Origin: Trypanosoma brucei
Lineage: Eukaryota
Assembly (NCBI GenBank): GCA_000002445.1
Contig: CP000066.1
Span: 704,001 to 768,000, forward strand
Length of the DNA: 64,000 nucleotides
Direction: 5' to 3'
A program made the translations under genes and the position numbers. This document shows, one piece after another, positions 39,716 through 58,752 of the stretch (the stretch's first letter is position 1; each line of letters starts with the position of its first letter). Under the pieces are notes generated by a model. It saw only the letters and a program-made list of their open reading frames with translations. It made no database searches and was not told the DNA's origin.

Positions 39716-39763
39716 TCAATACAAGAAACAAAAGGGCAACAACAACAAAAAAAAAAAGATGGG
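39716..39763 (-). promoter_or_regulatory. polypyrimidine tract upstream of the small ORF 39318-39632
   Basis: Plus strand is caatacaagaaacaaaagggcaacaacaacaaaaaaaaaaagatgggg, giving a pyrimidine run on the minus strand. It supports the small ORF as a processed gene. Confidence 0.45.
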
Positions 39764-40286
39764 GTCTCCTCACAAGCGGGGGTCTCTCTGAGAAACTTAT
39801 CCTCTTTTAAAGAAAAAAAAAAAAGAAACAATTAGCAAGTAGTGTTATGGAAACAGCAAAAAAAAAAGTGGGGGAGAGATGGTGAAGACAATGGTACAAG
39901 TACAGAAATACACCCGTACACGTTATACACTCATATATTTTTATTCACTTATTTATTTACATTTGACAATGCGGAATCGCTGCAGAGAACGTGTAAGAAG
40001 GCATGTGATGGAACCCCCATCCATATCATCACTGTTATTTCTTCTGATACAAAAGAAAAAAAAAAGAAAAAAGAAAAGAAGGAAGAAAAGAGAATTTCAG
40101 CCTCCATTCCAATCCCAGAGAAATACAGTGGAGAGGTTAAATAGTAGAAGAGAAGTAATAACAAGCAATGCGAATGGGGAAGTCTCGCAGAGAGCGCGAG
40201 TGAAAGGTTCTAACATGACAAAAGAAGAAAAAAAGAAAGAAAAGAAAAAAGTAGTACATCCACAATTACATCGGAGTTCATCCATT

Positions 40287-41255: not shown

Positions 41256-41285
41256 ATCTACCTGTTCAGTTTATATACTGGAATT

Positions 41286-41288
<3 letters not shown>

Positions 41289-41320
<32 letters not shown>
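41289..41320. repeat. (TA)16 microsatellite, with a second (TA)9 at 41350-41367
   Basis: Direct reading of the sequence. Intergenic, between the MORN gene and eIF2-alpha. Confidence 0.95.
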
Positions 41321-41324
<4 letters not shown>

Positions 41325-42905
41325 AACTCCGTGTTGGAGGGATGAAACGTATATATATATATATATAATGTATTGTTGTTGTTGTTGTTGCTGTTGTTAT
41401 TTCTTCTCTTTATTTTATTTCTTCTGGTGTTTCTCCTCTCCTCTTTGGTTCTATTTGGTTTAATTCCCTCACCTCCCTTTTCTTGCAAATGACATAATGG
41501 CGGTAAAGAAAGTTTAAAAGATTTGGTGGGGAGGAGGGGTTTTTTTAAAAAAAACAAAAAAGAGAGACAGAGAGAGACATAAAATCGGTTAAGTCTTTCC
41601 TCAGAGCGGAGTACCAAACACATTATTAAACAACTGACAAGAGGAATAATTCAACAAAACCAAAGAAAAAACAATAGTTCGATGCTAAATAACAACTTAA
41701 ATAAAGCAACAATTAATAAAAATTGTTGTTAGTATTATCACTACCGCGAGTGATTTATACACACAAATAAATAAATATCGCCGTACAGATGTCTGCAGCA
41801 GTAAACATTTGCCTTCACAGTGGCGTCGCTCAATATTTCAGTTTGTATGTAAATGCTATGAAAACTATGGCTTCAACTGCGGGTGTACTCTCTAAAAATT
41901 ATAAAACATGAGGCGCCATCATACACACACGCACACGCTCACACAAAAAGAAAAAAGAAAAAAGACGAGCATCCATTTCCTTTTTGCCTTTTACCAATCG
42001 TTAGAATTATGCCGCTATTTTCCTCTACAAACTAATGCAATCTGCTGCCAATGATAAGATATAAATATTAATATAAATGTATTTCTGATTTAGCTTTTAT
42101 CCTTCCTTCAAACTTGTGTGGCTCCAATACGCAGGTACGCATGGAATCTCATTGCAACGCTAACTTAAAGCAAAACCTAAAAAAATAAAAATAACAATAA
42201 TAATAATAATAATAACGGAAAGTAAATAGAGAAAATAATGAATAGATAATAGAAAAATGGAAGCAAGAAAAGGAATCAAACAAATAAGTACACTGCAATA
42301 TGTGATAACACGCATGTAAGCAAATACATTAATTAATATATGAACACGTGCTATTAAGCCAGAGTGAAGGATAATGTAGCAGCGGTTATGGTAGCGCATG
42401 AAAGTATTCGATTTCCCACCGCTTAGTGGAAGGAAAATTGGTCACAACATCCATTACTTTCACTTCCCCTACACTTCCCTTCTCACTCAAGCCTCCATCC
42501 ATTCTCTCTTTTCTTTTCTATTTTGTTTTTTTTTTTAAAAAAGAAAAAAAATATTATTTTGCTTTTTTGATTTAATATATTCTTTAACTCAGAAGTTATT
42601 TAAGTAACTCAAATAGTCCCTAGTTCATATCTCACTCCCCTGCGTTGGCGTCGGTGTTGTCTCGTTGCGTTTGTTAGTATGGCATTAACAAAGAAAAAAA
42701 AAAGAGGAGAAAAGAGTCAAAAGTGAGAAAAGGTGCTAAAAAAACAAAAAAAGAAAAGTGTTCCATACATTCGCGTTGCGATGTATGTTGTCTTTCCTCC
42801 TCTTCTCCTATCCCACACGAACACAAATATATAAACACAAAAGCACTTCTTTCACTCTCTCTTTCTCTCTTTCTCTCTTTCTTTTTCTCCTCACGCCGCT
42901 CCTCT

Positions 42906-44162
42906 TCAGTCCGTGTCTTCGCCTTCATCGTCTTCGGCATCTTCATTTCTTTCCTCTTTTGTATGTTCCTCTTCACCAAGTACGAAAGGACCAGCGACTA
43001 CCTTAAGAATACCTCCACGCTTCGCCATCTCAATTTTCATCATCTCAATCGCCTCCTTCATGCGAACAATTCCCTCCTCTTTCAGCTCCGTCTTTGCGCG
43101 TAACCGATATTTGGGTGGTCCAACAATTGTTACGGAAATGGGAATGAGTGGATCCTTTCCAGCCTTAAAGTCGCGGCCAACCAGTAAAACTTCCCGTAGC
43201 GCATTCACACCATCGCATTGAAAACATGTCATTTCAATATCAGCATGAATGGTTGCAATTTCTGTTCGCATGGTGTGCTCCAGCGTTGTCATGAGCACCT
43301 TTATTTCAGCTTCAGATATTTCCAGATCCCCGAGAATACCCTTCACATCTTTGGTTTGGTTCAGTTCATAGAGCCATTCCCATGCGTGTTTACCGGGTTG
43401 GCGACGGTACAAGGGGTAAGCAATTCTTTTCATAGCTTCCGCTGGGGGAACACCGCATTCATCCGCCACATGACACACAACAGACCGAACCTCATTTCCC
43501 TTGAAGAAACGGGCCTCACAGTCTTTCGCCTCCTTTAGCGTAACCTGTTTCTTGGAGAGATCAATGTAACCCTTGTCCTTATCGATACGAATAACCTGCG
43601 CTGCTTCGTTTTTACCTACTTTGATGACCTTACCGATGGCACGAATGCGAATCCTCGTGATTTCCGTGTATGGAATGATGCCTTCATGGTTGCCATACTC
43701 CAGTAGCTGCACCACAGCGGAAGTATCATTCACCTGAATAACCTTCACCCAAACAACATCACTCTCCTTTGGTAACTTTTCCTCATAAAAGTAAACATCA
43801 GCTCCATCCCATGTGGTTACGCCTAAGCAGGCACCTACGAACTTCTGCTGGCGCTTATTGAGGTCCTTAATCCATTGTTGCTTTGCTCCATCACCTTTAC
43901 TGACTACTTCTGTTCCGGCAGTGGCAGCTGCAGGCGACACAATTGCGGCTTTTTCCAACAATACCACCAAACTTTCAAATGCAGAAGAGTCCAGAGGTAC
44001 GCCGAAGGGTTCTGCGATGAGTAACTTCCTTCGGGATAAGTTGGCATGAAGGCGGAAATACTCCTTTGGAACTTGGAAGTACACGCCATCTGTTGTTTGG
44101 CAGCAGCACTTCGTTTTGTAGTCTACATTATCCGGACTCTCCACTATACCGTAAGCTGCCAT
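42906..44162 (-). CDS. eukaryotic translation initiation factor 2 alpha subunit (kinetoplastid type with an N-terminal extension of about 100 aa)
   Basis: The S1 domain and eIF2-alpha core align with human eIF2S1 ([31 protein letters not shown] versus [25 protein letters not shown]). The regulatory Ser51 position is occupied by Thr at residue 169 ([11 protein letters not shown]), as described for trypanosomatid eIF2-alpha. The C-terminus is acidic. From memory this is Tb927.3.2900 (unverified). Confidence 0.9.
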   Translation of the reverse strand: [418 protein letters not shown]

Positions 44163-45132
44163 CTCTTCTTGGAATGATCAACCCTATTGCGCTGCGTGGC
44201 AGGAGATTTAAAAAAAGAAAAGGAAGGGATCTCGAATATATAAATATGCATAGATACATACACATACAGGTGCGTGTATTTATGCGTATGTTTGTATTTG
44301 CTTTGCGTATGTTTATACTCGTAAATACAAGAAGGTGAAATAATAGACAAGCATCCAAGCAGAAAAATATCTGCAAAACAGAAACGTGAAATGGATGAAT
44401 CCGTAGCTGCTTTTTAAGATCCCGCGCACCTCATAATCAGAATACGCCCAGTTGTTAGTCAAAATATGATCATATGTAAACAAATATATCATATCAACTC
44501 ATGTGAATTCCTTGTATTTTCCTCTTCCTCTTTTTGGCCTTTGCGCCACGTACCTGCAGGTGATATTAACTTAATTTGCAGTTCTGCATATTTGAAGAAA
44601 CAAAAAACTTTTATGTCCTTCTAAAGCAAACAAATAGAAAGGAAAAGAAAGAGTTGACAGCAAATGGTAAAAAAAAAAAAAGAAAAAAAGAGCAGCAGCA
44701 GCAGATGAGCGACGATCACAGTAGAAATTTTATTTTTTTTTTTGAAAAAAAGAAAAGAGAAAAGATGTTTAAATACGAGTGAGAGCAACAGTTTCTCAAA
44801 CCATATAAGAAGAACTGCTCCATCTCCATCTCCATCTACACCTCCCGTACACCAGATGAGTATGTGTTAAAGTACGGGAAATGGAAAGGAAAGAAAAAAA
44901 AAAGAAAGAAAAAAAAATACATAAAGCGTTGTGAAAAAAAAAAAATCGTTCTGGGGACTACATGACTGAATCGACATTGAAAACAGAACAAAAGAAAAAG
45001 GGAGAGAATGAGAGGAGAATTGAAAGAAAAAAAACAGAAACTTTCAATAAAGAAAATGCGAGCACCCACACGACTAAAAAAGAACGTCAACACGCAACCG
45101 CCTTTTCATCACCACCCTCCCCGAGGAGTCAG

Positions 45133-45172
45133 ATATATATATATATATATATGCACACACACACACACACAG
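45133..45172. repeat. compound (TA)10(CA)9 microsatellite
   Basis: atatatatatatatatatatgcacacacacacacacacagacacacac. Confidence 0.9.
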
Positions 45173-45535
45173 ACACACACCTCTCCAAACTTACACCACA
45201 CGGCCAACAAATAAATTTTAAAAAAGAGGGGGGGAAAAAAAAACACAACTCAAATATTTTGGCTACTGTGGTGAAGAGCCGGAAACACTTCAGGTGAATG
45301 AAAGGAATTCAGAACAAAGAAACAAAAAAGGAGGGGAGCGGGATTGCGCTCAGCTGGAAGAGTTTAAGACGCAACTGTACAGAAAGAGGAAGCTAGCAAA
45401 AGTAAAAAAAAAACAAAAAACAAAAAAAACCTCAGCAATGCGTCAAAAAGATAAAAAGAAAACTTTTTAAAAAGTGCCCACACAGGCAAACCGTAGCAGT
45501 AACCAGCAAGCCACTAAATGCGACGGTACTGAACA

Positions 45536-45946
45536 TTATCTGACGGAGGACATCATTTTCTCCGGTATTCCGTCACGTTCAACAGAACCGCTGCCTTCAT
45601 TAAATTCCCGAGTAAAGCTGTCATTGGATTCATTGAAAAGCGCCTCGATGGCATCGCGATCATCCTGCCCGAGAAACGCCCCTCGCGCCGCTCCATCAGC
45701 TCTCCAATCGCTACCGGCACCTGCGGGACTTCCACCGATCCAATTGCCAAAAGAACCGCCCAAATCCTCTTCAGGTTCCTGCAATTTAATGCTGAGTTTG
45801 TCATGTTTCTCACGTAATGTTGACAATTCTGCCAACAAACGCGCCCGCACTAATTCCTCCCGAGCCGCATCAGCAGCCGCGTCGCCGCGGTCACCCTCTG
45901 ATCTCCTCTTCTGAAGGTTCCTTTCCTTCTGGGACTGCCTTCCCAT
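45536..45946 (-). CDS. small hypothetical protein (136 aa), basic N-terminus, predicted coiled segment
   Basis: ATG at 45946. GC-rich coding-like island within a very AT-rich spacer. The coding-strand PPT is 45975-46060. No similarity recognised. Confidence 0.4.
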   Translation of the reverse strand: MGRQSQKERNLQKRRSEGDRGDAAADAAREELVRARLLAELSTLREKHDKLSIKLQEPEEDLGGSFGNWIGGSPAGAGSDWRADGAARGAFLGQDDRDAIEALFNESNDSFTREFNEGSGSVERDGIPEKMMSSVR

Positions 45947-46431
45947 CTTGAGTTAATGGCTTTTTTTTTTTTTTTATTTAAAAAAAAAAAAGAAGAAAAA
46001 AAGACAAAAACAAGACAAAAACAAATACAAGCAGAAAGAAGGAAGGAAGGAAAATAAATAGTGACAAAAAACAGCTCGCAAAAAAAGTGGATATTTAAAA
46101 ATAATAAGCTATTGAACAGGTATGAAACGCGAATAAGAATAAATGATAAGATAGAAGGCAGTTGCAAAGACACTACATGGACACTGGGAAGGCATCCGCT
46201 ATAACAGAACATCAGGGCATAGAGAAGGGAATAAAACCAACAGATAAAAATAAGCAAGTGAGTTAAATTCAAGGAAAATAAAAATAAAAAGAAACCCAAA
46301 ATATAAAGTGTATTTAAAAAAAAGAAAAGAAAAGAAAGAAAAAAAACAGGCAACGATAGCGCGGTATGGTAAAAGAAGAAATTTTTAAAAAAACTAAATG
46401 ACGAACAATAACAAACAATAATGAATGGAAA

Positions 46432-46457
46432 TGGTAATGGTAATGGTAATGGTAATA
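46432..46457. repeat. (GGTAAT)4-5 hexanucleotide repeat
   Basis: atggtaatggtaatggtaatggtaatag. Confidence 0.9.
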
Positions 46458-46803
46458 GTGTAAACAAGGACTAGAACCCATACTCCACCAAACCCCTCAG
46501 TAAAAGAAACAACTTTTACCGCACTCTTTCATAATTTGCACGCTCACATCCGCACTTTACTGCACAAGTGCAGCTAGTTAAGGTACACAATGTAAAATAC
46601 AATAAAAATGGCAAACGGGAAAGTTAACATAACCTCCTGCAGAACACAAATACAAGTAACTGGAGCAAAAACTTTGGGGCTAATGGTGACGTCAATAATA
46701 ATGACGATAATAGTAACGATACTAACAATAACATGTTTGGCGCCACTGGTGCTACTGTTAGCATCAAAGAGACGCATGAGTAGTGACATGCAACAAACTG
46801 TTA

Positions 46804-47811
46804 TTAGTTAACAACCCTAATAATGTCATTGGGATAAACATATGAAAAAGCAGCCGCCACATCCAGGCATGACAGCGCATTTACGAGAAATAGTGGCAGC
46901 CCTAATTCATCAAATACCCACAAACCTAACGAGCCCTCATGCACATCATGTCCCGCCTCTCTGAACTCTTCAGGTGTTCCCCATATCGTACACCAACAAC
47001 CAGACAAGATGCAGTAACGCCGAATGCAGTCCTCAATATCCTTTGGAAAAGTGGCACTTCGTGTGAGGACACTGACGGGGGTAAATTCCCGAAAGAATAT
47101 GAAAGCAGAGAAGTGGTTGATGTCATTAGTGCTTGTAATTCCGTTTCGTTTAACTTTGGGTTTGTACTTGGCAGACGTTGTGACGAATTCAGACAAGTTC
47201 ATGACACGACATCGCTCACCTCGATCATTATGAACCAGCACCGACGGTATGGCGCCCCCAGAACCAGCACCAGCAGAAAAGGCAGCAGAGAAGTCGCAAT
47301 GAAGATAAAGAGAAAGTGTGTTCATTCCCTTCATAAAATACCGCAACTCACCCGTGCTGAGCCAAAATGGAGATGTGTAATGACGTTCTTCCGCCAGTCC
47401 GACTGCCTCTTTCATTACCGTCACATCATCCGTTAAAGCCACGCCACGCATTGAGAGGGCGGAAGCAGTGAAGTCCACAGTTACAAGCGAGTCACCGCTG
47501 CTCATCCGCACCTTCCGCTCAAAAGGTCCATGAATTAATGCGGCTCGTGCGTAATCAACATTCAGAAATCCAGTCAGTAATTCTTCCGGAACCATTAAAG
47601 TCGGAAGAGACTTTGAGCACACGTTGAGGCGTAGTTGTTGCACTTGTGGCCAACTGAGTACATATTCCACATGCTTTTCTTGATGTTGTTGATGTTGTCT
47701 GAACGGCTCATCATGTGATGAAACATATGAATCCATTGATGCCTGTAATAAATCATGGGCCCAATTCGCCAGAGGCTTACAAAAAATGGTGCAACGACGC
47801 TTTTGATTCAT
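46804..47811 (-). CDS. hypothetical protein (about 335 aa)
   Basis: The ORF track starts at a TTG (47865) inside the PPT. The first ATG is at 47811 (MNQKRRCTIFCKPLANWAHDLL...). Coding-like composition; no family recognised. Confidence 0.55.
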   Translation of the reverse strand: MNQKRRCTIFCKPLANWAHDLLQASMDSYVSSHDEPFRQHQQHQEKHVEYVLSWPQVQQLRLNVCSKSLPTLMVPEELLTGFLNVDYARAALIHGPFERKVRMSSGDSLVTVDFTASALSMRGVALTDDVTVMKEAVGLAEERHYTSPFWLSTGELRYFMKGMNTLSLYLHCDFSAAFSAGAGSGGAIPSVLVHNDRGERCRVMNLSEFVTTSAKYKPKVKRNGITSTNDINHFSAFIFFREFTPVSVLTRSATFPKDIEDCIRRYCILSGCWCTIWGTPEEFREAGHDVHEGSLGLWVFDELGLPLFLVNALSCLDVAAAFSYVYPNDIIRVVN

Positions 47812-48280
47812 TTTATGTTGGTTATCTGCCGCACTCTTTTTTTTTTCAAAAAAAAAAAGTAACAACTATAATATTAAGGAGTATTATTAATATTACTACT
47901 ACTGTGAAATATTTAATGTATTCTGGTAAAACGTCGTCACTCACTTCATGAAAAGAACAAAACAAAAAAAACGGAAAAGGAACAAAATGTGAGCAAATGA
48001 ACGAATGAATGAGACAAGCGTAAAATAAACACGTTGCACAAACAGAGAGAACATGGAATCCAAAAATGTTTTTTTTCTGCTTTTATTTTTCTCTCTCTTT
48101 GCCGCGGAACCAATTTAAAAAAAAAAGTAGAATAGAAAAAACAGGAAAAGAACACGGAAAGAAAAAAAAAGACACAAACCTGAGAAAAAAAAAAAGAAAA
48201 AAAGAGAAAAGAGAAAGGGAAAAATAAATATATAAAAATCACAATGAAGTGGCGCCTGAATAACAACTGATAGCAATCCT

Positions 48281-48309
48281 TAATAATAATAATAATAATA
48301 ATAATAATT
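48281..48309. repeat. (TAA)9 microsatellite
   Basis: taataataataataataataataat. Confidence 0.9.
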
Positions 48310-48517
48310 AATATCATCACTATCATAAGAGTAATAAGAAAGGATGCTGTGAGGACACGTTTTGTACAAGAAGGGAGAAACATAAACATAAACACGTGAA
48401 GGAAAATAATAACAACAATGAAGGAGTACCAACGTCAAAACATGGAGGCAACACACAATTCGTTTCAGATGCTTGCCGTGAAGATAAACAATTTTTTTTT
48501 AAATGGGTATATATTTG

Positions 48518-48548
<31 letters not shown>

Positions 48549-48958
48549 TTCGTACGCACAAATTGTGTTTCAATACGGATAATAAGAAAGAAAAAAATGA
48601 AGGAAAAAACCAATGACACTAATGTTATTTATATAAAGTACTTTCTCATATAATTTTTTATTTATAAATAATGGGGTATAAATATATAAATATATAAATA
48701 TGAGTATGAAAAGGGAGAAAAAAAAAAGAGGAGATGGATATGGATATGGAAGTGAGTGGAACTGTGAAAAGGTGGATGAAGTTGTTATGTTACGGGGCTT
48801 TTGCTTTTTCTCTATTTTTTTTTTTCGTTTTTGGTTTTGCTTTTGCTTTTTGTAGAAATTTGGTTCGAGTTTCTTTTCCTTTGCTTTTTTTTCTCGATGC
48901 TTTCTTTTTTCTTTCTTTTCTTTCTATTCCCTATTCCTTATATACTCTCCTCTCTTTC

Positions 48959-48989
<31 letters not shown>

Positions 48990-50954
48990 AATATATTTTT
49001 TTTTAAAGCACAAACTTCTAATGTCAAGCATACCGCCTTAAACAATCAATAGAAATAAATAAATAATAACGCCACATAATTTAAAAGAAAAAAAAATCAA
49101 AACTGCTCGTCATGGGGATCTCACGCCGGAATCCAAAACAAAACAAAACAAAAATTGGAAAAATAACGAGAAGTAAAAGACATGCGGCATTTATTTCCAC
49201 TTGGAAGCCGGGACTTTTCTTTTCCTTTCTTTACTTCCTTTGGGCCTCTGTTTTGTAATATATATTTATATATTTGTTTATTTATTTATTTATTTATTCC
49301 TCACAGTTCAAAATAATTTTTAAAAAATATTGGGACAAATAGGAAAAGATGATGAACATGAAGATGAAAAACGACGAAGGGGAAAGGAACGCAAAAAAAA
49401 AAAGGGAAAAAGGGAAAAAGAAACAAGGGATCAAGAAAAATTACACAGAACTCAAAAAATTAAAAAACAAAACATCAAATAAAAAGATACCGCCAAACAA
49501 ACAACCGAATGAATAAACAAACAAACAAACGCGCACAACACACACAAAAAAAAATTTTAATTCCCACTCACAACGAAATAAAGGCAACAACACACCTCAA
49601 CATCCAAGTTATTGTCACCACACACATAATTACACACGCACGCATATGCGTGCAAGCATCAAACAAAAAAAAGAACAAAACAGAGCGATTACGCTAGTTA
49701 TGCGACGGAATAACAGAATAAATACAGATATAAACATATAAATATAGAAATATAATAAATACAAAAATGTATAGAAATACGTATATGTGTTACTACCGTC
49801 ATCACATCATCATCATCATTATCATCATCATTTTATTATTGTTACATTTACAATATTTATTACATTGTTATTTTGTTGTTATTTTGTTGCGGTCCGCTTC
49901 GTCCAATCCCGTTTTCATCTTCATTTTCCTCCCTTTTTGCGTTGCAAATCAAATCCAACAGACCACTAATCACTCCATTCCATTCCATTCCACTTCTCTC
50001 ATTTCTATTTTTTAAAAAAAATAAAAATAAAAATAAAAAATAATATTTGCTCCTTATCTTTCAATCCCTCTTTTCATTCATATTTCTTTTTTCTCTTCTT
50101 TTCTTTTCTCTTCTCTTCTCTTCGTTTGTTTGTTTACCTTTTGTTTTTTGTTCTTTTTTTTTCCTTCTTTTGTTTTACAAATAATGAGCAAAACACAAAC
50201 ACAAGAAGAAAGTACATAATTCCTCTTTCTTTCCCCTTATGCACATGAGTGTCTCACATATATATATATATATATACACCACGTGAGTGTTTATAATAGA
50301 CGTAACGAATAGGGCAGAAAATAAAAATAAAAAAAAAAACAACAACGCAATAATAAAGTAATAAAGTAATATAATAATAGAAAAGAAAAAAAGTAGGAAA
50401 AGGAACGAAGGAAAGAAGGAAGGAAAAGGAACGAAGGATAGAAGGAAGGAACTATATAAACAAACATTTAAGTAGAATAAAAATAAACATAAACAATGAC
50501 ATAATGAGCAAAACTAAACTAAAACAAAGCCAAAAACAAAAAAAAGACACCAATTATAATAACATAATTAAAAAAATATATGAAAAAGAAAAAAAGGTAA
50601 AAGAGATAAATTGAGAACACATCAAACTTATTTCCTCCTCCCCCCACCTTTTTTTTTAATTCATTTTTTTTCTTTCTTTAATTTTTTTTTCACTTCAGTT
50701 TATTTTATTTTTGTATTACTGTTATTTCTTTTTTTTTCCTTCTTCTTCTAATTTGTCATATTGTTGTCATTGTTTCTTTTTGTTTTTCTTTTTCTTTTTC
50801 TTTTTTTTTGTTTTGACTTCACTCCATTCATAAGTTTGTTACGGGGAGGAAATGACATGGACAATAAAAATGGAAGAGAAAATGCAAACACTTGTACACG
50901 GTAGACTCAAAAACAAATCCCCGCGCCTCTTCTTTTTTTTTTCATTTGACACCT

Positions 50955-51010
50955 TCATTTCAATTTCAATTTCAATTTTAATTTCAATTTTAATTTTAAT
51001 TTTAATTTTT
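50955..51010. repeat. (TTTCAA/TTTTAA)n hexamer microsatellite; left arm of an inverted pair
   Basis: catttcaatttcaatttcaattttaatttcaattttaattttaattttaatttt. Confidence 0.9.
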
Positions 51011-51289
51011 TTGTGAGTGTTTTGTGTGTGATTTTTTCGATTTCATTTAATTTTTTGTTTGTTTGTTTGATTGTTTATTTTAATCATTTATACAAATATG
51101 TTTTACTCAAATATTTTCCGTAGGAGTTTTTTTGCTATCCTCAATTTGTGTGTGTGTGTGTTTTTTTCTTTTCTTTTTTCTTTTCTTTTTAGGTGTTGTC
51201 CTCTCCTTTTGGTTTCTTTTCGTTGAATGATGTTTAGTTTCGCCACTTTCACACCTGTGATGACTGAAAGAAATAATTAATGTCACAAC

Positions 51290-51378
51290 AATTGAATGAA
51301 ATCAAAAAATTAAAAAAATTGAAATTGAAATGAAATTGAAATGAAATGAAGGAAATTGAAAAATCAAATGAAATGAAA
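51290..51378. repeat. (TTGAAA/TGAAAT)n hexamer microsatellite; right arm, the reverse complement of the 50955-51010 repeat
   Basis: aaaaaattaaaaaaattgaaattgaaatgaaattgaaatgaaatgaaggaaattgaaaaatcaaatgaaatgaaag. The reverse complement of the left arm is aaaattaaaattaaaattgaaattaaaattgaaattgaaattgaaa. Confidence 0.85.
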
Positions 51379-52577
51379 GAACGACAGAGATGTGAAGAGA
51401 CAAATAAAAATTTTTTTTTGAAAAAAAAAGGTGGAAAATAAAAATAAAAAGTAACGACCGCAACTCTTTTCCTTTTCTTTTCATATACACCTTCAACTTT
51501 TGTTTTCTTATATAAAAAAGAAAAGAAAAGAAAATCTTGATTTTGTTTTTGACTTTTTTTTTTTGGTTCTTTTCAACCCTCTAATCTCTTTTTTTTTATT
51601 TTTTTGCTTCACATATATAAATAAATATATATAAATAAATATATATATACGTATAAATATCTTTCTTTATGCTGAGGTGTATATGCGCAAGAGTAAATAA
51701 AATTTTAAAACACGTGTAACTGCACAGTGAAGGGGGGAGGAGAAAAAAAAAATGCAAGTGAGAAATAAATCTCCTTTCGTTAAGAATTTTAAAAAAAAAA
51801 AAAAGTAAACAAGGAAAAATTATGGGCCAGCTGTGGCGCAATCTCTAGAATAAACAAAAAAAAACAAAAAAACAAAAAAAAAGAAACGAAACGAAAAATT
51901 ATTTCACCTTTCATTTATTTTCTGTTTGGTTGATTGGTTTCCTCTTTTAAGTTCCGCGTTCGTGACACTTCTTCTCTTTTCTTTTCCTCTTCCCTGCCCT
52001 CTTATTTTCTTTTTCTTCTTTTTTTTTTCGAATTTTATTGTTAATATCTTTCTTTCATTCGTTCGCTTTCTTATAATTTATTTGATCCATTCACCTCCCC
52101 ATCACTTGTAGTCATTAGTCCCTTTTATGTTTTTTTTTCATTTATTTAGTTATTTATTTACTTATTTATTTCCTCTTCTCCTAATTTTATTTTAGTCATC
52201 ACAAAACGTCATTTTATTTTTTTTTCCTTTCTTTCTTAATTTCTCCTCCCCTCTCCCTCTCCCTCTCCCCCTCCTCTCCACCGAAACCCCCAACCCGTTC
52301 CTTCGTTATTCGTTTCTTTTCTTCCTTTTTTTTTTTTTGCTTTTCCTCGTGTGCATCTCTCCCATCAATTTTTGTTACGTTTTGCTTTTTGCTTTTTGCT
52401 TTTTTTTTTTAAAGAAAAAGAAAACGTCGGGCCAAACACAAACACGCACACAAATGTATAGACTTATTGATTTATATTTATATATATATATATATACAAA
52501 AATAATAAAACAAACAAATATATAAAGCAAGCAAATAAAATAAAACAAAAAAATAATAATAATAATAATGTGACACT

Positions 52578-53297
52578 TCAACCAGCGGCACCGCGGGAAC
52601 CCGCATGAACGTATGGGGAACTGTTACTGGGCACAATATTTAATGGATTTGTGGAGTAACCAACTTTAAGCCATTTGCCATGGAATTCGTAACCACTCAT
52701 TCGCTCCACAGCTTCCTTCGCATCTTCCGCATGGCAAAAATATACAAAACCATAACCCTTCGACATATTGGTTTGCTTGTCGTAAATAATTCGCGCCCCA
52801 TCAAGTTCTCCAAAGCGGGAGAAAAGTTCATGAAGGTCCGTACTTGTCACATCAGGGGCGAGATAATTTACAATTAATTGCTTGCGATAACGATCATCTT
52901 GCAGAGGCACACTTCCAACGGGCATGGCATGATGTCTCAACTGCTGCTGCTGCTGTTGTTGTTGTTGTTGTTGCGGATGAATATTATAATTGAAGGAAGA
53001 AGAGGAGGAACCATTTGCCGTTTGATTGGGGTAGCCGCTCATAATACTTTGATCCACAGGTGTTACACGCATTTGAACATATTGCGGACTGGCAGCTGTG
53101 GATTGTTGAGTGATGAAACCGCCCTGTTCCTGTTGAATGGGGCCCTGGTAATGATACGGATATAATCGAGCTTGAGGCTCCGTAGTAGCAAAGGGATGAT
53201 ACGGCTGTTGAATCTGCCGTTGCATCATGGCATATTGCTGCCCGTATGGAATTTGCGTCAGCTGTGGCGAGGTCTGCGGGCTGTTGGGGTAGAACAT
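52578..53297 (-). CDS. RBP6: single-RRM RNA-binding protein with a Gln/Pro/Tyr-rich N-terminal low-complexity region and poly-Q tract; probable RBP6 ortholog
   Basis: ATG at 53297. RNP2 is LIVNYL and RNP1 is KGYGFVYF in the C-terminal RRM. The N-terminal 130 aa are Q/P/Y-rich with a run of 12 Q. Its size (239 aa) and its position between eIF2-alpha and IAG-NH fit my recollection of T. brucei RBP6 (Tb927.3.2930); this is unverified. Confidence 0.75.
   Translation of the reverse strand: MFYPNSPQTSPQLTQIPYGQQYAMMQRQIQQPYHPFATTEPQARLYPYHYQGPIQQEQGGFITQQSTAASPQYVQMRVTPVDQSIMSGYPNQTANGSSSSSFNYNIHPQQQQQQQQQQQLRHHAMPVGSVPLQDDRYRKQLIVNYLAPDVTSTDLHELFSRFGELDGARIIYDKQTNMSKGYGFVYFCHAEDAKEAVERMSGYEFHGKWLKVGYSTNPLNIVPSNSSPYVHAGSRGAAG
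52941..52973 (-). repeat. (CAG)n(CAA)n coding repeat giving a Q12 tract in the RBP6-like protein
   Basis: Plus strand ctgctgctgctgctgttgttgttgttgttgttg within the CDS. Confidence 0.95.
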
Positions 53298-54483
53298 ACA
53301 GCAGAGGGAATCAAATGGAAAATGATAACAATAGTATTAATAATAATAAACAGTAACTAATAATGTTAATAATAGTGGCAATCGTAGAAGCGATAGGTAG
53401 CGGAGGTACCCACAGTAATGGCAGTAATAATAATAACAATATATATAAAAATATAATATGTATATTTGTATTACCCTACTGCTCTTGGTCTTTTCTTCTT
53501 CTTCTTCTTCCGTTCTCTTAATATTTCAAAAGGTGTGTAATAGGAGTATAGGCGTGTTATTAACTGTATTGTTTTTTATTGTCTTTCCTGTTGTTCCTTC
53601 CGTGACTGGAGCTGCATATCAATACCGACAAAAAAAAAAGGAAAAGAAGGAAAAGAAGGAAAGAAGGAAAAAAGGAATGGCATAACGGAAAAGACTGGTG
53701 AATGAAGTTGAGTTTCCGCATATAAGTGAGACAGTTGGCTCCTACACATTTGTGATTATGTAAATTCATTTATTTTAGCTTTAAATTGTGTATATATTCT
53801 GAAGAATATAAAAATAAACAAATGAAATTAAATACGTAAATAAAAATACACTCGCACGAAACATGCCGAAACTATGAAAGCTCTCAATCGCGGCGCGGAA
53901 GTTGAAGGAAGAACTGACACAACTTCGCCTCCCCACCCCCCCCCCACACCCCATATTATTATTATTATTATTATTTAAAAAATATAAACAAAAGAGGGGG
54001 GTTTTCGCTGAGGGGTTGCACTGTCAGGTTTATGTGATGATTTAAAAGGAAAGCGAAAGCGAAAGCGAAAAAAAAAAAGAAAATGCGCGAAGCAGGAGGG
54101 AAATAACGTACAAATGAACAATTTATCGGCCACGATGGAACTAAACGGAAATTTTTTAAAGAGTAGCCATCATGTTAATGCCAAAGATAAACAAAACATT
54201 TTGCAACATAATAAAACGTCAAAACGGCAGAACACATATCCAACATGGCATTTGTGAAAATACAGAACGTAGTAGTAAAATACATGCACATAATTACGCG
54301 GGTCGTGGAAGGTGACAATGAAAAAAGAAAAAACAATAATCTGTCACATGAAGCTACTATGGATAGGGTAAGTGAAATTATAATCGTACAGAACGAGCGG
54401 AGGCAACAAAAAAAAAATAATCAAAATTCAGAGCTCCATGAAGGGGAAAAAATTTTTCAAAAAAAATAATAATAATATAAACC

Positions 54484-55392
54484 TCATTTTTCAATGGCTG
54501 CGGAGAGGCACATGCGCTCCACAGATGTGAGAAAAACGTCCAACAGTTCCCTCACGTTACGGAGCTCCACAGCGACATTAAAATCCAGTGCCCGAAGCAT
54601 TTCCCGCTCAACACGCGCGGTCGTTTTGCAAAGATACCGTTGCATCTGCGTTGAAGCATAAGGAAGAAGGGTTACCAAATACTCAAATGTTACTGCGGCA
54701 TCGGCGTGCCACTTTAGCGCAAGACCATATGCCACAAAAAGATTCCTCCAAGTGTTACCAAGAAAAAAGCGAAAGGACGGGTAATTTGATATTACATTAT
54801 CATTACTATTACTATTGTTAGCAATAGCAGTAGCAGCAGAAGCCACGTCACCGGAGTGGTAAGCGGCCACAGAGTCTGAAATTCGTTCCCGTCCCCGATG
54901 TGTGTGAAGTGCGTACTGAAGATGAAGTTTATCAATAATACCAAAAGCAATCAACCACGCCGCACTGTCCAAGTTCTCAACAGCGTCATATAAATAAGTG
55001 AACATAACCTCTAGTGAAGCCCCTTTACCAAATGTACTCTGCCAAATCCCATCATCCGGTATTTGTGTTGAGGTTAATTTACGCTTCGCCACGCGACCAT
55101 CATTCGTATCCACGACGAATGGCAATGTGCCATCAGGAGCAGCTGCCGTTGAAGTTCCCTCAGATCCCAAAGGCCGCCGATAACTGTCAAGAAGTCTTCC
55201 CCAAAGTGTAAAGAGAGTTTTACCAATGAGAGCAATGTTACCACTCCAGCGGATAATGTTGGGGGACTTTATGGTAAAATCAGCTGCTGATTCTTCAAAT
55301 CCAGACGATCCCCGCCGCCGTCGCCGGACTGGACGGCAGTCCACTTGAGCTTCATAATCATCGTTGGAAAGTTTAAAAAGTGTACGAGGCAT
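54484..55392 (-). CDS. cyclin-domain protein (PHO80-like cyclin)
   Basis: The C-terminal half carries a cyclin-box-like fold with the characteristic ...EREMLRALDFNVAV... motif. ATG at 55392. The N-terminal 120 aa are low-complexity and basic. Confidence 0.65.
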   Translation of the reverse strand: MPRTLFKLSNDDYEAQVDCRPVRRRRRGSSGFEESAADFTIKSPNIIRWSGNIALIGKTLFTLWGRLLDSYRRPLGSEGTSTAAAPDGTLPFVVDTNDGRVAKRKLTSTQIPDDGIWQSTFGKGASLEVMFTYLYDAVENLDSAAWLIAFGIIDKLHLQYALHTHRGRERISDSVAAYHSGDVASAATAIANNSNSNDNVISNYPSFRFFLGNTWRNLFVAYGLALKWHADAAVTFEYLVTLLPYASTQMQRYLCKTTARVEREMLRALDFNVAVELRNVRELLDVFLTSVERMCLSAAIEK

Positions 55393-56472: not shown

Positions 56473-58752
56473 TTATCGTCTTGAAGATCTCTGAGGAGAT
56501 CCCAGTGGAGATCTTGAGGGGGATTTCCCTGACGACCGCGACGTCGGGGTCCGCAAGACGGCATTCCTGGCAGAGATTCCCAATTTAACCTCCAACTCCT
56601 TTCGGGCCAGTTCCAGCGTGGCGAGTTTATCACCCTCATACTGGCAGGCTTTCATTTCCCGATTACGATCTTCTTCTGCAATGCTGAGTTCTGTCAAGAG
56701 TGGCCGCAGTCGTGCCGCCTCCGCCTCTTCCAGTTGCTTTAGTTGCCGCCGCACACGATCCATTTCACGGTTAGCTCGCTCCACACGATCCCTCTCCTGC
56801 TGCAATCGTGCCTCCATGTTGGACATGCGAGCGTTGATGGTTGCCATCCCATTCGATACACGTTCTTCTGTGCGATGCAAAACCTCCTCTGCAGCATACA
56901 TACGCCCCTGCACTGTGGCGAGTGTCTTCTCAATATCCACAATGTCACGGCGAGCCTTTTCAACCGTAACGCGGGCCTCTTCTTTGCGCCGCAGTAACTG
57001 TTCACTGCGGTCCTTGATGATGCGACGCTCCATTTCAATTTCATCTTCAGCCTGAGCCAGCTCTTTCTCCTTGAAGGAAAGACCCTCCACCTCCGCCTTC
57101 AGTTTCGGTACAACAAGACCTTTGTTTGTCTCTGCGTTCCGTGCAAGCGTTGCACGGATACCAAGAAGGCACTTGTATCGGAAATCGTTATATGTAATAT
57201 CCATATTCTCCAGCGAAGTGTTGCTCCGCAGTTGTTCATCTAATAAATCTCCCGTTACATTTGACATGCAGTTGCGTCGGAGCCTGAGCTCACGGAGCGT
57301 ACTGTTGCTTTTAAGAAACATAGCAATTGCTGATCCGCCCTCATCCATAATGTTATTGCATGACAGGTCCAGGCTAACTAGTCCCTTATTGGTTTTCAAA
57401 GCCTCTGCTATGCATATTGTCGCCGCATCTCTGAGTTTATTTCTCGACAGGTCAAGGTGCTGCAGTGTGGCATTCGTTGAGAGCCCTGTGACAAAGGGCT
57501 GGCCATCTGTTTCCCTAATTTCACACGACGCCATGTGCAGTGACTTCAGTCCCTTGTTCTCCGCGAGACCCTCCAAAATAAACTTTGAAGCAGAACCGAA
57601 GCAATTCAAAGAAATTCGAAGCTGCTTCAGAGCTGATGATACCGTCAATACCTTCTGTATGGCTTTGGCGGAATTTGTGCTCAAGTCGTTGCTCTCGATG
57701 TTGAGAAACTCGATTCGGTCCTCACCATTTTCAACAGCGGCGGCAATGGCGCGGAATATTACCATACCACCACTATCCGTCAGATTGTTCCTTTGAAGGG
57801 ATAAGTGGGTGATGCAGGAACTCTCTAATACATCAGCAATTATCTTCGCACCCTCATAGCCCAAGTTATTGACGGAAATATCCAAATGCGTTAGGCTCTC
57901 ATTCCCATCAAGACCAGAAGCAATATGGGAAATACCGGCATGGCCTAAACCGTTGCAACCGAGGTTGAGTTTCGCTAGTACCTTATTGGATTTAAGAACG
58001 TTACCTATTGCCTTCGCACCCTCGGTGGCGATGTGGTTTCCGTTAATACCTGAGTGTGCTCCCACGTCAAGTGAAATAATCGTGTTATTCTCAAGTAATG
58101 CATCGGCAAGCGCCTCACCGCCAATGTGACCAATATCATTTGAACGAAGTCCGACATGTACGAGAGTCCTATTGACGCTAATGAGCTTGGCAATAAAACA
58201 AGCACCCTCATCCAGCAGACGGTTCCCGCTTAGGTCAAGAATTGTATATTTGTTATTTGATGACAAAATGTGGGCAATGGCCTCCGCGCTCATTGGCCCG
58301 AGTCCACTCTCCCTCAGGCAAAAGAACTTTCCTTTGCAATTTGCACTAATAAGTTCCATAAACCGCATCTTGCGCTCCCACGACGGCGGCAAGGCCTGGT
58401 CCAAACACTTCGCCTGATAGAGGAGCTGAAGATCCTCGACGGAAAAGTCGACTTCGTCTTGACTACATGTCTGAAGGGTACCGCATCCGAGTAGCTCCTC
58501 AAAAGAAATGAAGTTGGCAGCGTACGGAAGCCCCTTGGGCAAAATTCGCGGAAGGCGGGTAGACGATGTGGTTTGATCCTGCAGAAACGTTCGGCGCCCT
58601 TTTGTTTTGTGGTTGTACAAATATGTCTGGGGTGGCGCAGCAAATACTACGGGCTCCGTTTCGGTCTCGCTCCTTAAAAGCCTGGAGTTTCTTCCGAAAT
58701 CAAATGTCTCCGTGAGGCTCTGCGAGCTCTCTTTCACAGCACCTACAACCAT
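56473..58752 (-). CDS. ribonuclease-inhibitor-type leucine-rich repeat protein with a C-terminal coiled coil (about 759 aa)
   Basis: At least twelve 28-29 aa RI-like LRRs (LxxLxLxxNxIgxxGaxxlaxaLxxNxx). The last 200 aa are strongly heptad / charged (EEARVTVEKARRDIVDIEKTLATVQGRM...RQLKQLEEAEAARL). The ORF track start 58857 is a GTG and the extension translates a (TA)13 repeat (IYIYIYIYI). The first ATG is 58752 (MVVGAVKESSQSL). Confidence 0.75.
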   Translation of the reverse strand: MVVGAVKESSQSLTETFDFGRNSRLLRSETETEPVVFAAPPQTYLYNHKTKGRRTFLQDQTTSSTRLPRILPKGLPYAANFISFEELLGCGTLQTCSQDEVDFSVEDLQLLYQAKCLDQALPPSWERKMRFMELISANCKGKFFCLRESGLGPMSAEAIAHILSSNNKYTILDLSGNRLLDEGACFIAKLISVNRTLVHVGLRSNDIGHIGGEALADALLENNTIISLDVGAHSGINGNHIATEGAKAIGNVLKSNKVLAKLNLGCNGLGHAGISHIASGLDGNESLTHLDISVNNLGYEGAKIIADVLESSCITHLSLQRNNLTDSGGMVIFRAIAAAVENGEDRIEFLNIESNDLSTNSAKAIQKVLTVSSALKQLRISLNCFGSASKFILEGLAENKGLKSLHMASCEIRETDGQPFVTGLSTNATLQHLDLSRNKLRDAATICIAEALKTNKGLVSLDLSCNNIMDEGGSAIAMFLKSNSTLRELRLRRNCMSNVTGDLLDEQLRSNTSLENMDITYNDFRYKCLLGIRATLARNAETNKGLVVPKLKAEVEGLSFKEKELAQAEDEIEMERRIIKDRSEQLLRRKEEARVTVEKARRDIVDIEKTLATVQGRMYAAEEVLHRTEERVSNGMATINARMSNMEARLQQERDRVERANREMDRVRRQLKQLEEAEAARLRPLLTELSIAEEDRNREMKACQYEGDKLATLELARKELEVKLGISARNAVLRTPTSRSSGKSPSRSPLGSPQRSSRR

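What the first reader, a model, noticed from the sequence alone, without database searches (positions are those of the whole stretch)
44200..53300. About 9 kb AT-rich, gene-poor stretch flanking the RBP6-like gene, implying multi-kb UTRs
This interval holds only about 2.1 kb of coding sequence. The RBP6-like CDS is followed on the transcribed strand by about 4.7 kb (47866-52577) with no supportable ORF. That stretch is packed with homopolymer runs, (TA)n, (TTTA)n, (CAAA)n, (GGTAAT)n and hexamer repeats, with alternating blocks of strand purine/pyrimidine skew (for example the plus strand is A-rich at 47900-49700 and T-rich at 49800-50250, 50640-51260 and 51900-52400). RBP6 is a master regulator of procyclic-to-metacyclic development, and trypanosome developmental regulators typically carry long regulatory 3'UTRs. 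This region is the prime candidate for such control elements.
Basis: partly seen in the sequence, partly recalled or inferred. Interest (0 to 1): 0.55.

Follow-up and report, generated by a model that had tools for sequence, protein, structure and literature searches.

The report
Long non-coding spacer after RBP6
The trypanosome developmental regulator gene RBP6 is followed by a 4.8-kb AT-rich, gene-free stretch that is unusually long in every related parasite examined, so it probably controls RBP6, but the public annotation assigns only its first 592 bases to the RBP6 messenger RNA.

Summary
The window matches Trypanosoma brucei TREU927 chromosome 3. All 22 genes lie on the minus strand. Between the RBP6 stop (52578) and the next gene's ATG (47811) lie 4766 nt with no gene. 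GC is 27.7%, against 39% in other spacers and 51% in coding sequence. About 20% is microsatellite or homopolymer. A third sits in strong alternating purine and pyrimidine tracts, where a Markov model expects under 1 nt.

The TriTrypDB annotation, as reproduced in a published supplement, gives RBP6 a 592-nt 3'UTR ("automatic, not checked"). It ends at about 51986, roughly 90 nt before a polypyrimidine tract plus AG. The remaining 4.2 kb is not part of that annotated UTR; I could not check whether other transcripts are annotated there. It carries at least five more splice-signal-like tracts, two stronger than almost any real gene-proximal tract in the window.

Three results suggest function. The RBP6-to-Tc-38 spacer is the longest nearby intergenic region in seven other trypanosomatid loci (3.8-11.6 times the median), with no sequence similarity between distant lineages. 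It diverges about half as fast as neighbouring spacers. No hidden ORF or known RNA family was found.

Most likely it is an alternative-polyadenylation region, like RBP10's DRBD18-controlled 3'UTR. This is inferred, not shown. It is a new member of a known kind, of moderate interest.

The parts
52578..53297 (-). RBP6 coding sequence (239 aa, one RRM, poly-Q run)
   Evidence: Pfam RRM_1 E=1.5e-18. 99% identical to 'RNA-binding protein RBP6 [T. brucei equiperdum]', 84% to T. congolense, 51% to T. vivax.
47812..52577 (-). Whole gene-free spacer between the RBP6 stop and the ATG of the Tc-38-domain gene (4766 nt, GC 27.7%)
   Evidence: No Pfam hit for any internal ORF. No conserved ORF by tblastx against five other species. 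No Rfam family at gathering score. Only sub-threshold chance hits at E<=1.
51986..52577 (-). Proximal 592 nt: the 3'UTR annotated for Tb927.3.2930 in TriTrypDB TREU927 v5.1. The annotated poly(A) site at about 51986 is followed by genomic AAAAGAAAAGAG.
   Evidence: Supplement of PMC5568443: 'geneCodeEnd+0 to geneEnd+0, length=593', and '3_UTR length 592, automatic 3'-UTR, not checked'. The first 359 nt (the part of the 593-nt entry shown in the retrieved passage) are identical to the window.
52248..52271 (-). G-quadruplex-type motif GGGGGAGAGGGAGAGGGAGAGGGG inside a 440-nt purine-rich block (52410-51968)
   Evidence: A similar A-run plus G-rich purine block lies soon after the RBP6 stop in T. 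theileri, T. melophagium and T. cruzi.
51845..51898 (-). First internal polypyrimidine tract (52 nt, score 34), immediately followed by AG at 51846-51845. It is the likely signal that sets the proximal poly(A) site about 90 nt upstream. Two more tracts follow at 51819-51729.
   Evidence: The rule that poly(A) sites are set by the downstream splice signal is from PMC9380746.
51294..51451 (-). Second polypyrimidine cluster (scores 23 and 39)
50627..50829 (-). Largest polypurine block on the transcript strand (203 nt, score 107, A-rich, with AAGAA-type repeats)
   Evidence: AAGAW occurs 48 times on the sense strand and 30 on the antisense, against a Markov expectation of 31 +/- 5.7.
50307..50451 (-). 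Strongest internal polypyrimidine tract (145 nt, score 82), with the first AG 53 nt downstream
   Evidence: It exceeds every gene-proximal tract in the window (median 43, maximum 77).
50046..50176 (-). Polypurine block (131 nt, score 89)
49322..49440 (-). Second strongest internal polypyrimidine tract (119 nt, score 68), with the first AG 21 nt downstream
48798..48958 (-). Polypurine blocks (scores 62 and 33), followed by a polypyrimidine tract at 48781-48708 (score 38)
47944..48238 (-). Terminal polypyrimidine cluster (scores 45, 41, 35) and AG at 47945-47944. This is the predicted trans-splice acceptor region of the Tc-38-domain gene (5'UTR of about 132 nt or less). It would set the most distal possible RBP6 poly(A) site, about 4.1-4.3 kb after the stop.
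51617..51659 (-). Cluster of UAUUUAU (AU-rich-element-like) motifs inside a (TATTTA/TA)n microsatellite. Similar clusters lie at 49761-49718, 49065-48963 and 48700-48664.
   Evidence: 17 sense copies against 1.7 expected from dinucleotide shuffles, but 11 copies on the antisense strand. The excess is driven by repeats, not by strand.
46804..47811 (-). Downstream gene: Tc-38 (p38) domain protein, 335 aa from the ATG
   Evidence: Pfam PF20054 E=6e-25. Syntenic partner of RBP6 in all seven other species loci examined.
45536..45946 (-). Conserved 136-aa hypothetical gene, flanked by ordinary intergenic regions of 857 and 1373 nt
   Evidence: Called at the same position in T. b. equiperdum (136 aa) and T. 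vivax (129 aa). No Pfam hit.

Best explanation
The 4.77-kb stretch is a non-coding part of a minus-strand polycistronic unit. It serves as an extended, alternatively processed 3' region of the RBP6 mRNA.

It is built from about five consecutive modules. On the transcript strand each module has an A/G-rich block followed by a polypyrimidine tract and an AG. That is the same layout as an ordinary trypanosome intergenic processing signal, where the poly(A) site lies about 100 nt upstream of a splice-acceptor tract.

Use of the first module gives the annotated short mRNA with a 592-nt UTR. If the internal tracts are masked, processing moves to later modules. This yields UTRs of roughly 2, 3 or about 4.2 kb. 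The masking would work as DRBD18 does for RBP10 and more than 1500 other mRNAs.

The longer UTRs would add AU-rich and AAGAW-type destabilising or repressive sequence and binding sites for repressors such as DRBD13 and RBP10. This would keep RBP6 low in procyclic and bloodstream forms. A shift to proximal sites would raise RBP6 in fly stages.

Shown here:
- no gene or known RNA family in the spacer;
- the modular purine/pyrimidine architecture;
- the annotated proximal site and its position relative to the first tract;
- conservation of spacer length across trypanosomatids;
- reduced divergence.

Inferred: that long isoforms exist, and that site choice regulates RBP6.
For: - All 22 genes lie on one strand, so the spacer is transcribed with RBP6.
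- No ORF is supported and no Rfam family matches.
- The spacer holds eight polypyrimidine tracts with score >=30. The tracts at 50451-50307 (score 82) and 49440-49322 (score 68) are stronger than nearly all genuine gene-proximal tracts in the window (median 43). Each internal tract is preceded by a purine block.
- Purine and pyrimidine tracts cover 34% of the spacer, where a Markov model gives under 1 nt.
- The annotated poly(A) site (592 nt) lies about 90 nt upstream of the first tract plus AG, as the processing rule predicts (rule in PMC9380746).
- The RBP6-to-Tc-38 spacer is the longest intergenic region in each of seven other trypanosomatid loci: T. b. equiperdum 4708 nt, T. vivax 4618, L. 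braziliensis 4692, Novymonas 6912, T. melophagium 1838, T. theileri 2125, T. cruzi 1855. These are 3.8-11.6 times the local median. Sequence similarity between distant lineages is lost.
- Substitution divergence against T. b. equiperdum is 0.86% in the distal spacer and 1.59% in the other intergenic regions (Fisher p=0.0011).
- Literature: the longest trypanosome 3'UTRs belong to RNA-binding-protein and kinase mRNAs, and automatic lengths are under-estimates (PMC8982893).
- DRBD18 masks internal tracts in long 3'UTRs and promotes distal sites. AU-rich and AAGAW elements lie between the proximal and distal sites (PMC9380746, PMC11260167).
- RBP6 is a marker of the cell cluster that arises on DRBD18 depletion and rises after DRBD18 loss.
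- RBP6 mRNA is among the transcripts most enriched with the repressor DRBD13. It is enriched 4.5-5-fold with RBP10. Its polysome loading changes with heat shock.
Against: - The only documented 3' end is the short one (592 nt). I could obtain no transcript evidence for long isoforms.
- Strong internal tracts plus AG argue just as well for cutting the region into separate RNAs.
- No motif is enriched in a strand-specific way beyond what the microsatellites produce. UA(U)6 occurs 5 times against 3.4 expected, and UAUUUAU is high on both strands.
- No primary-sequence block is conserved with T. vivax, T. theileri, T. melophagium, L. braziliensis or Novymonas. The T. cruzi spacer was compared by blastn only and is 60% N.
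- The lower substitution rate could reflect AT-rich mutation bias, or alignment gaps absorbing differences in low-complexity DNA.
- The T. cruzi and T. theileri spacer lengths include assembly gaps of 1112 and 250 N.
Confidence: 0.5

Rival explanations
1. RBP6 has only the short (about 0.6 kb) 3'UTR. The remaining 4.2 kb or so is cut at its internal splice and poly(A) signals into one or more separate spliced-leader-capped, polyadenylated non-coding RNAs. These may be functional lncRNAs or unstable processing by-products.
For: - The annotated 592-nt UTR ends about 90 nt before a tract plus AG at 51898-51845.
- At least five further splice-competent tracts follow, two of them exceptionally strong.
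- T. brucei has 1428 reported lncRNAs. They are mostly intergenic, less GC-rich than mRNAs and carry ordinary trans-splicing and poly(A) motifs (PMC9200285).
- Trans-spliced polyadenylated RNAs made only of 3'UTR sequence are documented (PMC9380746).
- Length conservation and reduced divergence fit a functional ncRNA locus as well as a long UTR.
Against: - The annotation is flagged as unchecked, and automatic lengths are often under-estimates.
- The poly(A) site sits next to genomic AAAAGAAAAG, so some contribution from internal priming cannot be excluded.
- No structured or conserved RNA element was detected.
- I could not check whether any lncRNA is annotated here, because the supplements were not held.
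Confidence: 0.3
2. The spacer is largely neutral DNA: an intergenic region inflated by microsatellite slippage and homopolymer expansion. Only ordinary short UTR signals at its two ends are functional.
For: - About 20% is simple repeat, and 130 TRF rows cover the interval.
- Against T. b. equiperdum the distal part has 32 indel events.
- Nothing aligns with distant species.
- Folding z-scores are the same on both strands.
Against: - The same intergenic region is the longest in the locus in all seven other trypanosomatid loci, including GC-rich genomes where it is not AT-rich (T. vivax 45% GC, L. braziliensis 47% GC).
- Its substitution rate is about half that of neighbouring spacers.
Confidence: 0.15
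3. The spacer hides an unannotated gene (a small protein, snoRNA cluster or retroelement remnant), or it marks a chromosomal feature such as a transcription boundary, centromeric repeat or replication origin.
For: It is unusually long and AT-rich. Trypanosome snoRNAs are poorly represented in Rfam, so a negative scan is weak evidence.
Against: - There is no Pfam hit, and the internal ORFs translate to low-complexity sequence.
- tblastx finds no conserved ORF.
- No Rfam or other repeat family was found, and no tandem array has a period above 40 nt.
- No 300-nt window in 47800-52599 exceeds 36% GC, and most lie between 21% and 33%. I infer that this is unlike ingi/RIME elements.
- All flanking genes are on the same strand, so there is no strand-switch region.
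Confidence: 0.04

Closest known systems
RBP10 (Tb927.8.2780) mRNA with its 7.3-8.5 kb 3'UTR and DRBD18-controlled internal processing sites
   Same: - The gene encodes a single-RRM developmental master regulator.
- It is followed by a multi-kb, gene-free, low-complexity region with many internal polypyrimidine tracts.
- mRNA abundance rises on DRBD18 depletion.
- The automatic annotation places a poly(A) site in an A-rich tract.
   Different: For RBP10 the long mRNA was shown by Northern blot, RNA-seq and single-molecule FISH, and regulatory fragments were mapped by reporter assays. For RBP6 only a 592-nt annotated UTR is documented, and nothing in the distal 4.2 kb has been tested. A full-text search for 'RBP6 3' found no trypanosome paper.
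DRBD18-dependent alternative polyadenylation class ('Pattern D/E' transcripts, PMC11260167)
   Same: - Several candidate poly(A)/splice modules lie in one intergenic region.
- AU-rich and AAGAW-type sequence lies between the proximal and distal sites.
- The transcript belongs to the stumpy/metacyclic-type set that is derepressed when DRBD18 is depleted.
   Different: Whether RBP6 is in the Pattern D/E lists could not be checked, because the datasets are not held.
Intergenic lncRNA loci of T. brucei, for example grumpy upstream of the RBP7 genes (PMC9200285)
   Same: The region is non-coding and low in GC, carries normal trans-splicing and poly(A) signals, and lies next to a differentiation-regulating RNA-binding-protein gene.
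   Different: grumpy lies upstream of its RBP genes and contains a snoRNA. No snoRNA or other structured RNA was detected here, and no transcript has been assigned.

Membership tests
Long regulatory 3'UTR of a trypanosome RNA-binding-protein mRNA (RBP10 type) | Gene-free region directly downstream of the CDS on the transcribed strand, within one polycistronic unit | tested here: met
   All 22 genes are on the minus strand. The 4766 nt hold no supportable ORF or RNA family.
Long regulatory 3'UTR of a trypanosome RNA-binding-protein mRNA (RBP10 type) | A continuous mature mRNA running from the CDS to a distal poly(A) site several kb downstream | not testable with these tools
   No transcript data are available. 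The only documented end is at 592 nt, from an automatic, unchecked annotation.
Long regulatory 3'UTR of a trypanosome RNA-binding-protein mRNA (RBP10 type) | Internal polypyrimidine tracts that must be masked for the long form to be made | tested here: met
   There are eight tracts with score >=30. Two (82 and 68) are above nearly all genuine acceptor tracts in the window.
Long regulatory 3'UTR of a trypanosome RNA-binding-protein mRNA (RBP10 type) | UTR fragments confer stage-specific expression on a reporter | not testable with these tools
   This needs an experiment. Motif counts give no strand-specific enrichment beyond the microsatellites.
DRBD18-regulated alternative polyadenylation targets | mRNA abundance increases when DRBD18 is depleted | tested here: met
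   Literature only. RBP6 is a marker of DRBD18-knockdown cluster 0 (PMC11260167), and RBP6 mRNA rises after DRBD18 depletion (PMC5568443 citing earlier work).
DRBD18-regulated alternative polyadenylation targets | Shift from distal to proximal poly(A) site on DRBD18 depletion | not tested
   The datasets of PMC11260167 and PMC9380746 are not held as text.
T. brucei intergenic lncRNA (Guegan et al. type) | Longer than 200 nt, low coding potential, lower GC than mRNAs, flanked by ordinary splice and poly(A) motifs | tested here: met
   GC is 27.7%, no ORF is supported, and tract plus AG modules lie every 0.5-1.2 kb.
T. brucei intergenic lncRNA (Guegan et al. type) | A detected transcript carrying both a spliced leader and a poly(A) tail | not testable with these tools
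   The supplementary tables of PMC9200285 are not held.
Strand-switch region, or transcription start or termination region | The coding strand changes across the region | tested here: not met
   Genes on both sides, and throughout the window, are on the minus strand.
Centromeric or satellite AT-rich repeat array | Long tandem arrays of a unit of about 30-150 bp | tested here: not met
   The largest TRF period is 40 nt at 2 copies. All repeat families found are low-complexity look-alikes.

The most novel reading that the evidence does not exclude
The spacer may be more than a passive UTR. It could be a chain of processing modules whose number and total length are selected across Trypanosomatidae. 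Module choice would set RBP6 dosage and so time the procyclic-to-epimastigote-to-metacyclic programme. The excised distal pieces could be spliced-leader-capped lncRNAs acting in cis or trans on RBP6, by analogy with grumpy at RBP7. The A-run plus G-rich (G-quadruplex-type) purine element that recurs just after the stop codon in four Trypanosoma lineages would be the conserved switch element.
Probability: 0.15. Interest if true: 0.65.

Novelty: new member of a known kind. Interest (0 to 1): 0.35.

Why it matters
RBP6 is the one protein whose induced expression drives cultured procyclic T. brucei through epimastigotes to infective metacyclics. What switches RBP6 on in the tsetse fly is not known. 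RBP6 mRNA is known to be controlled after transcription:
- it is bound by the repressors DRBD13 and RBP10;
- it is raised by DRBD18 loss, heat shock and glucose withdrawal.

No cis-element has been mapped, and the annotation covers only 592 nt. The 4.2 kb beyond it is conserved in length across trypanosomatids, diverges slowly and is packed with alternative processing signals. Together these results define a concrete region to test by 3'-end mapping, deletion and reporter assays. The concept itself (long, alternatively polyadenylated 3'UTRs on regulator mRNAs) is already established for RBP10 and many other genes.

Tried and rejected
- **Rfam.** At gathering thresholds over the whole window there was nothing. 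At E<=1 over 44000-54600 there were only far-sub-threshold miRNA and snoRNA look-alikes in TA and A/T runs. Rejected as chance.
- **Repeat search in the spacer.** It found only low-complexity polypyrimidine, polypurine and TA families, with no true dispersed or inverted element.
- **Hidden-gene hypothesis.** Pfam on six internal ORFs gave no hits. tblastx among the spacers of six species gave no conserved ORF.
- **Conserved blocks.** blastn with word sizes 7 and 9 against the T. vivax, T. theileri, T. melophagium, L. braziliensis and Novymonas spacers, and with word size 7 only against the 60%-N T. cruzi spacer, gave only low-complexity matches. T. congolense would be the informative distance, but its locus could not be fetched because its RBP6 protein is not in the contig index.
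- **Sliding-window RNA folding.** The first run, with dinucleotide shuffles, timed out. The rerun used mononucleotide shuffles and gave similar numbers of low-z windows on the sense (17) and antisense (15) strands. It is uninformative.
- **Motif enrichment.** The UAUUUAU excess is caused by microsatellites and occurs on both strands. UA(U)6, PUF and CSD1 motifs are not enriched.
- **Literature on the RBP6 UTR.** A full-text search for 'RBP6 3' found no trypanosome paper. The Kolev 2012 paper is not held. The supplements of the DRBD18 and lncRNA papers are not held. The cap on the number of papers was reached.
- **G-quadruplex motif as an oddity.** There are six such motifs on the minus strand of the window, so it is not rare in itself.

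Full report
**What is there**

The window is a single minus-strand gene array. ORF listing and Pfam give 22 minus-strand genes. Around the finding they are:
- eIF2-alpha, 42906-44162;
- a 136-aa conserved hypothetical, 45536-45946;
- a Tc-38/p38-domain protein, 46804-47811;
- RBP6, 52578-53297;
- a 302-aa hypothetical, 54484-55392;
- an LRR protein, 56473-58752.

The 239-aa protein has one RRM (E=1.5e-18). It is 99% identical to the protein named RBP6 in T. brucei equiperdum, 84% to T. congolense and 51% to T. vivax. The first 359 nt after its stop codon are identical to the start of the 3'UTR of Tb927.3.2930 (T. brucei TREU927, Tb927_03_v5.1), as printed in a published supplement; 359 nt is the part of that 593-nt entry shown in the retrieved passage. 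The window is therefore TREU927 chromosome 3, or something indistinguishable from it.

**Checking the observation**

The interval 44200-53300 holds 2139 nt of coding sequence (23.5%), against 64.7% for the gene array as a whole. The gene-free stretch between RBP6 and the next ATG is 47812-52577, 4766 nt.

The other 20 intergenic regions in the window range from 375 to 1729 nt, with a median near 700-775 nt. GC is 0.277 in the spacer, 0.392 in the other spacers and 0.512 in CDS.

Polypurine tracts cover 906 nt of the transcript strand and polypyrimidine tracts 700 nt (score >=30). A first-order Markov model of the same sequence gives under 1 nt (maximum 58 in 300 simulations). The alternating blocks are therefore real.

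Three corrections apply:
- The plus strand is T-rich, not A-rich, over 48700-49150.
- The Tc-38 gene most likely starts at the ATG at 47811, not the TTG at 47865.
- The two other intergenic regions in the interval (1373 and 857 nt) are unremarkable. The anomaly is one spacer, not 9 kb.

**What it is not**

- No Rfam family reaches threshold anywhere in the window. A permissive scan gives only chance hits in simple repeats.
- Six internal ORFs have no Pfam match and translate to low-complexity sequence.
- tblastx between the spacers of six trypanosomatids finds no conserved reading frame.
- Repeat searches find only low-complexity families and no long-period arrays.
- There is no strand switch.
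- Sliding-window folding gives equally many low-z windows on both strands, so there is no sign of a specific structured RNA.

**Anatomy on the transcript strand**

Distances below are measured from the stop codon. The region runs as follows:
- a U-rich and TA-rich start, 1-160;
- a 440-nt purine block at 168-610, which contains GGGGGAGAGGGAGAGGGAGAGGGG;
- polypyrimidine tracts at 680-850, the first followed directly by AG (window 51846-51845);
- a purine block at 968-1114;
- pyrimidine tracts at 1127-1284;
- purine blocks at 1388-1951;
- a 145-nt pyrimidine tract at 2127-2271 (score 82);
- purine blocks at 2340-2707;
- a 119-nt pyrimidine tract at 3138-3256 (score 68);
- purine blocks at 3620-3780;
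- pyrimidine tracts at 3797-4001;
- a terminal tract cluster at 4340-4628, with an AG at window 47945-47944, 132 nt before the Tc-38 ATG.

For the other genes in the window, the best tract within 400 nt of the ATG has a median score of 43 and a maximum of 77. At least two internal tracts are therefore as strong as or stronger than bona fide acceptor signals. In effect the spacer is about five ordinary intergenic processing signals in series, with no genes between them.

**The key outside fact**

Supplementary files of Mugo & Clayton 2017 (PMC5568443) reproduce the TriTrypDB 3'UTR for Tb927.3.2930: 593 nt including the last base of the stop codon. [quoted passage not shown]

This places the annotated poly(A) site at about window 51986. 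It lies in the sequence ...GGGAAGAGG|AAAAGAAAAGAG, about 90 nt upstream of the first polypyrimidine tract plus AG. That is where the trypanosome coupling rule predicts a site, since poly(A) sites are set by the downstream splice signal (PMC9380746).

However, the same laboratory states that automatic UTR lengths are under-estimates, that some UTRs exceed 5 kb, and that the longest belong to RNA-binding-protein and kinase mRNAs (PMC8982893). The same supplementary table also notes that an automatically annotated poly(A) site can fall in a genomic A tract.

**Evidence that the rest matters**

I fetched the syntenic locus from seven other assemblies. RBP6 is followed by the Tc-38 gene in all of them. 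That spacer is always the longest intergenic region within +/-10 kb:

| Species | Spacer length (nt) | Ratio to local median |
|---|---|---|
| T. b. equiperdum | 4708 | 5.3 |
| T. vivax (no gaps) | 4618 | 4.9 |
| T. theileri (250 N) | 2125 | 4.5 |
| T. melophagium | 1838 | 4.7 |
| T. cruzi (1112 N, unreliable) | 1855 | 3.8 |
| L. braziliensis | 4692 | 7.2 |
| Novymonas | 6912 | 11.6 |

Nothing aligns between distant lineages. In T. vivax and Leishmania the spacer is not AT-rich (45-47% GC). Relative length is therefore retained while sequence and composition turn over.

Within the T. brucei group, substitution divergence against T. b. equiperdum is as follows:
- CDS: 0.51%;
- other intergenic regions: 1.59% (104/6547);
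- distal spacer: 0.86% (35/4089; Fisher p=0.0011 against the other intergenic regions).

The distal spacer also has 32 microsatellite-type indels. This is suggestive only. AT-rich mutation bias and alignment of simple repeats could both lower the apparent rate.

**Mechanism**

The published model that fits best is DRBD18-controlled poly(A) site choice:
- DRBD18 binds polypyrimidine tracts inside long 3'UTRs.
- This blocks their use as splice and poly(A) signals and promotes distal sites.
- On its depletion, shorter and often more abundant mRNAs appear, together with trans-spliced RNAs made only of distal UTR sequence (PMC9380746).
- More than 1500 transcripts are affected, and AU-rich and AAGAW elements lie between the proximal and distal sites (PMC11260167).

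RBP6 is a marker of the cell cluster that arises on DRBD18 depletion, and its mRNA rises when DRBD18 is lost. The spacer has 48 AAGAW copies on the sense strand against 30 on the antisense, with a Markov expectation of 31 +/- 5.7. It also has clusters of UAUUUAU inside TA-rich microsatellites.

RBP6 mRNA is also among the transcripts most enriched with the repressor DRBD13. It is 4.5-5-fold enriched with RBP10, and its polysome loading is regulated.

I therefore rank the explanations as follows:
- An alternative-polyadenylation region for RBP6, with the annotated 592-nt form as the proximal isoform: confidence 0.5.
- The short UTR is the only one, and the rest is cut into separate non-coding RNAs or by-products: 0.3.
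- Neutral repeat expansion: 0.15.
- A hidden gene or chromosomal feature: 0.04.

Sequence alone cannot separate the first two.

**Comparison with what is known, and novelty**

The closest known case is RBP10 with its 7.3-8.5 kb 3'UTR. The features shared are the class of gene, the gene-free multi-kb region, the internal tracts and the response to DRBD18. What is missing is any demonstration of the long transcript or of regulatory fragments.

In the held literature, no trypanosome paper contains the phrase 'RBP6 3', and the UTR is used only at its automatic length. I rate this a new member of a known kind. The region is annotated genome sequence and the principle is established. New here are the conservation of length across trypanosomatids, the modular processing architecture and the reduced divergence. 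Interest is moderate (0.35). It gives a defined target for the open question of how RBP6 is switched on in the fly, but nothing here would surprise a specialist.

Noticed in passing
window 52248-52410 (minus strand); L004 10750-10860; L008 10770-10850; L005 10470-10540: An A-run followed by a G-rich purine block lies within about 50-350 nt of the RBP6 stop codon in T. brucei, T. theileri, T. melophagium and T. cruzi. It is a G-quadruplex-type motif in T. brucei, and appears to be one in T. cruzi by eye. It is absent in T. vivax, L. braziliensis and Novymonas, where the region is pyrimidine-rich. It may be a recurrent proximal 3'UTR element.
   Followed up: partly
window 52941-52973 (RBP6 CDS): The poly-glutamine run of RBP6 varies in length. 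The protein is 239 aa here and in T. equiperdum OVI, but 237 aa in the T. b. equiperdum chromosome assembly. This is one in-frame 6-nt indel, at a (CTG)/(TGT) repeat.
   Followed up: partly
window 1-33000 versus 38000-62000: The window changes character. The left half has GC of about 0.50-0.55 and short spacers (375-818 nt). From about 38 kb the spacers are 0.8-1.7 kb and GC falls to 0.33-0.41. The RBP6 spacer lies in an already gene-sparser neighbourhood.
   Followed up: no
window 38558-40286 and 41256-42905: Two further long spacers (1729 and 1650 nt, GC 0.38 and 0.33) flank the MORN-repeat gene (40287-41255, minus strand), each with several polypyrimidine tracts. A 270-aa plus-strand ORF (39879-40691) overlaps the MORN gene but has no Pfam hit, so it is probably spurious.
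   Followed up: partly
window 53931-53952 (minus strand), upstream of RBP6: A second G-quadruplex-type motif (plus strand CCCCACACCCC x2) lies in the 1186-nt region upstream of RBP6. It is one of six minus-strand motifs of this kind in the window.
   Followed up: no
L005 (T. cruzi) 10001-10435 and 9684-9998; L006 versus L007 (L. braziliensis): There are annotation inconsistencies in the related loci. T. cruzi RBP6 is called as a 144-aa truncated product with a 104-aa opposite-strand ORF abutting it, and its downstream spacer is 60% N. The Tc-38 gene is called in one L. braziliensis assembly but not in the other.
   Followed up: no
L004 and L008 (T. theileri and T. melophagium) between Tc-38 and eIF2-alpha: Gene content between Tc-38 and eIF2-alpha differs between lineages. 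T. theileri and T. melophagium have an extra gene of about 340 aa and a ribosomal S19e gene there. T. cruzi also has a gene of about 340 aa there (a weak PH-domain hit) but no S19e. L. braziliensis and Novymonas have an S19e gene downstream of Tc-38. The T. brucei group and T. vivax have only the gene of about 130 aa.
   Followed up: no
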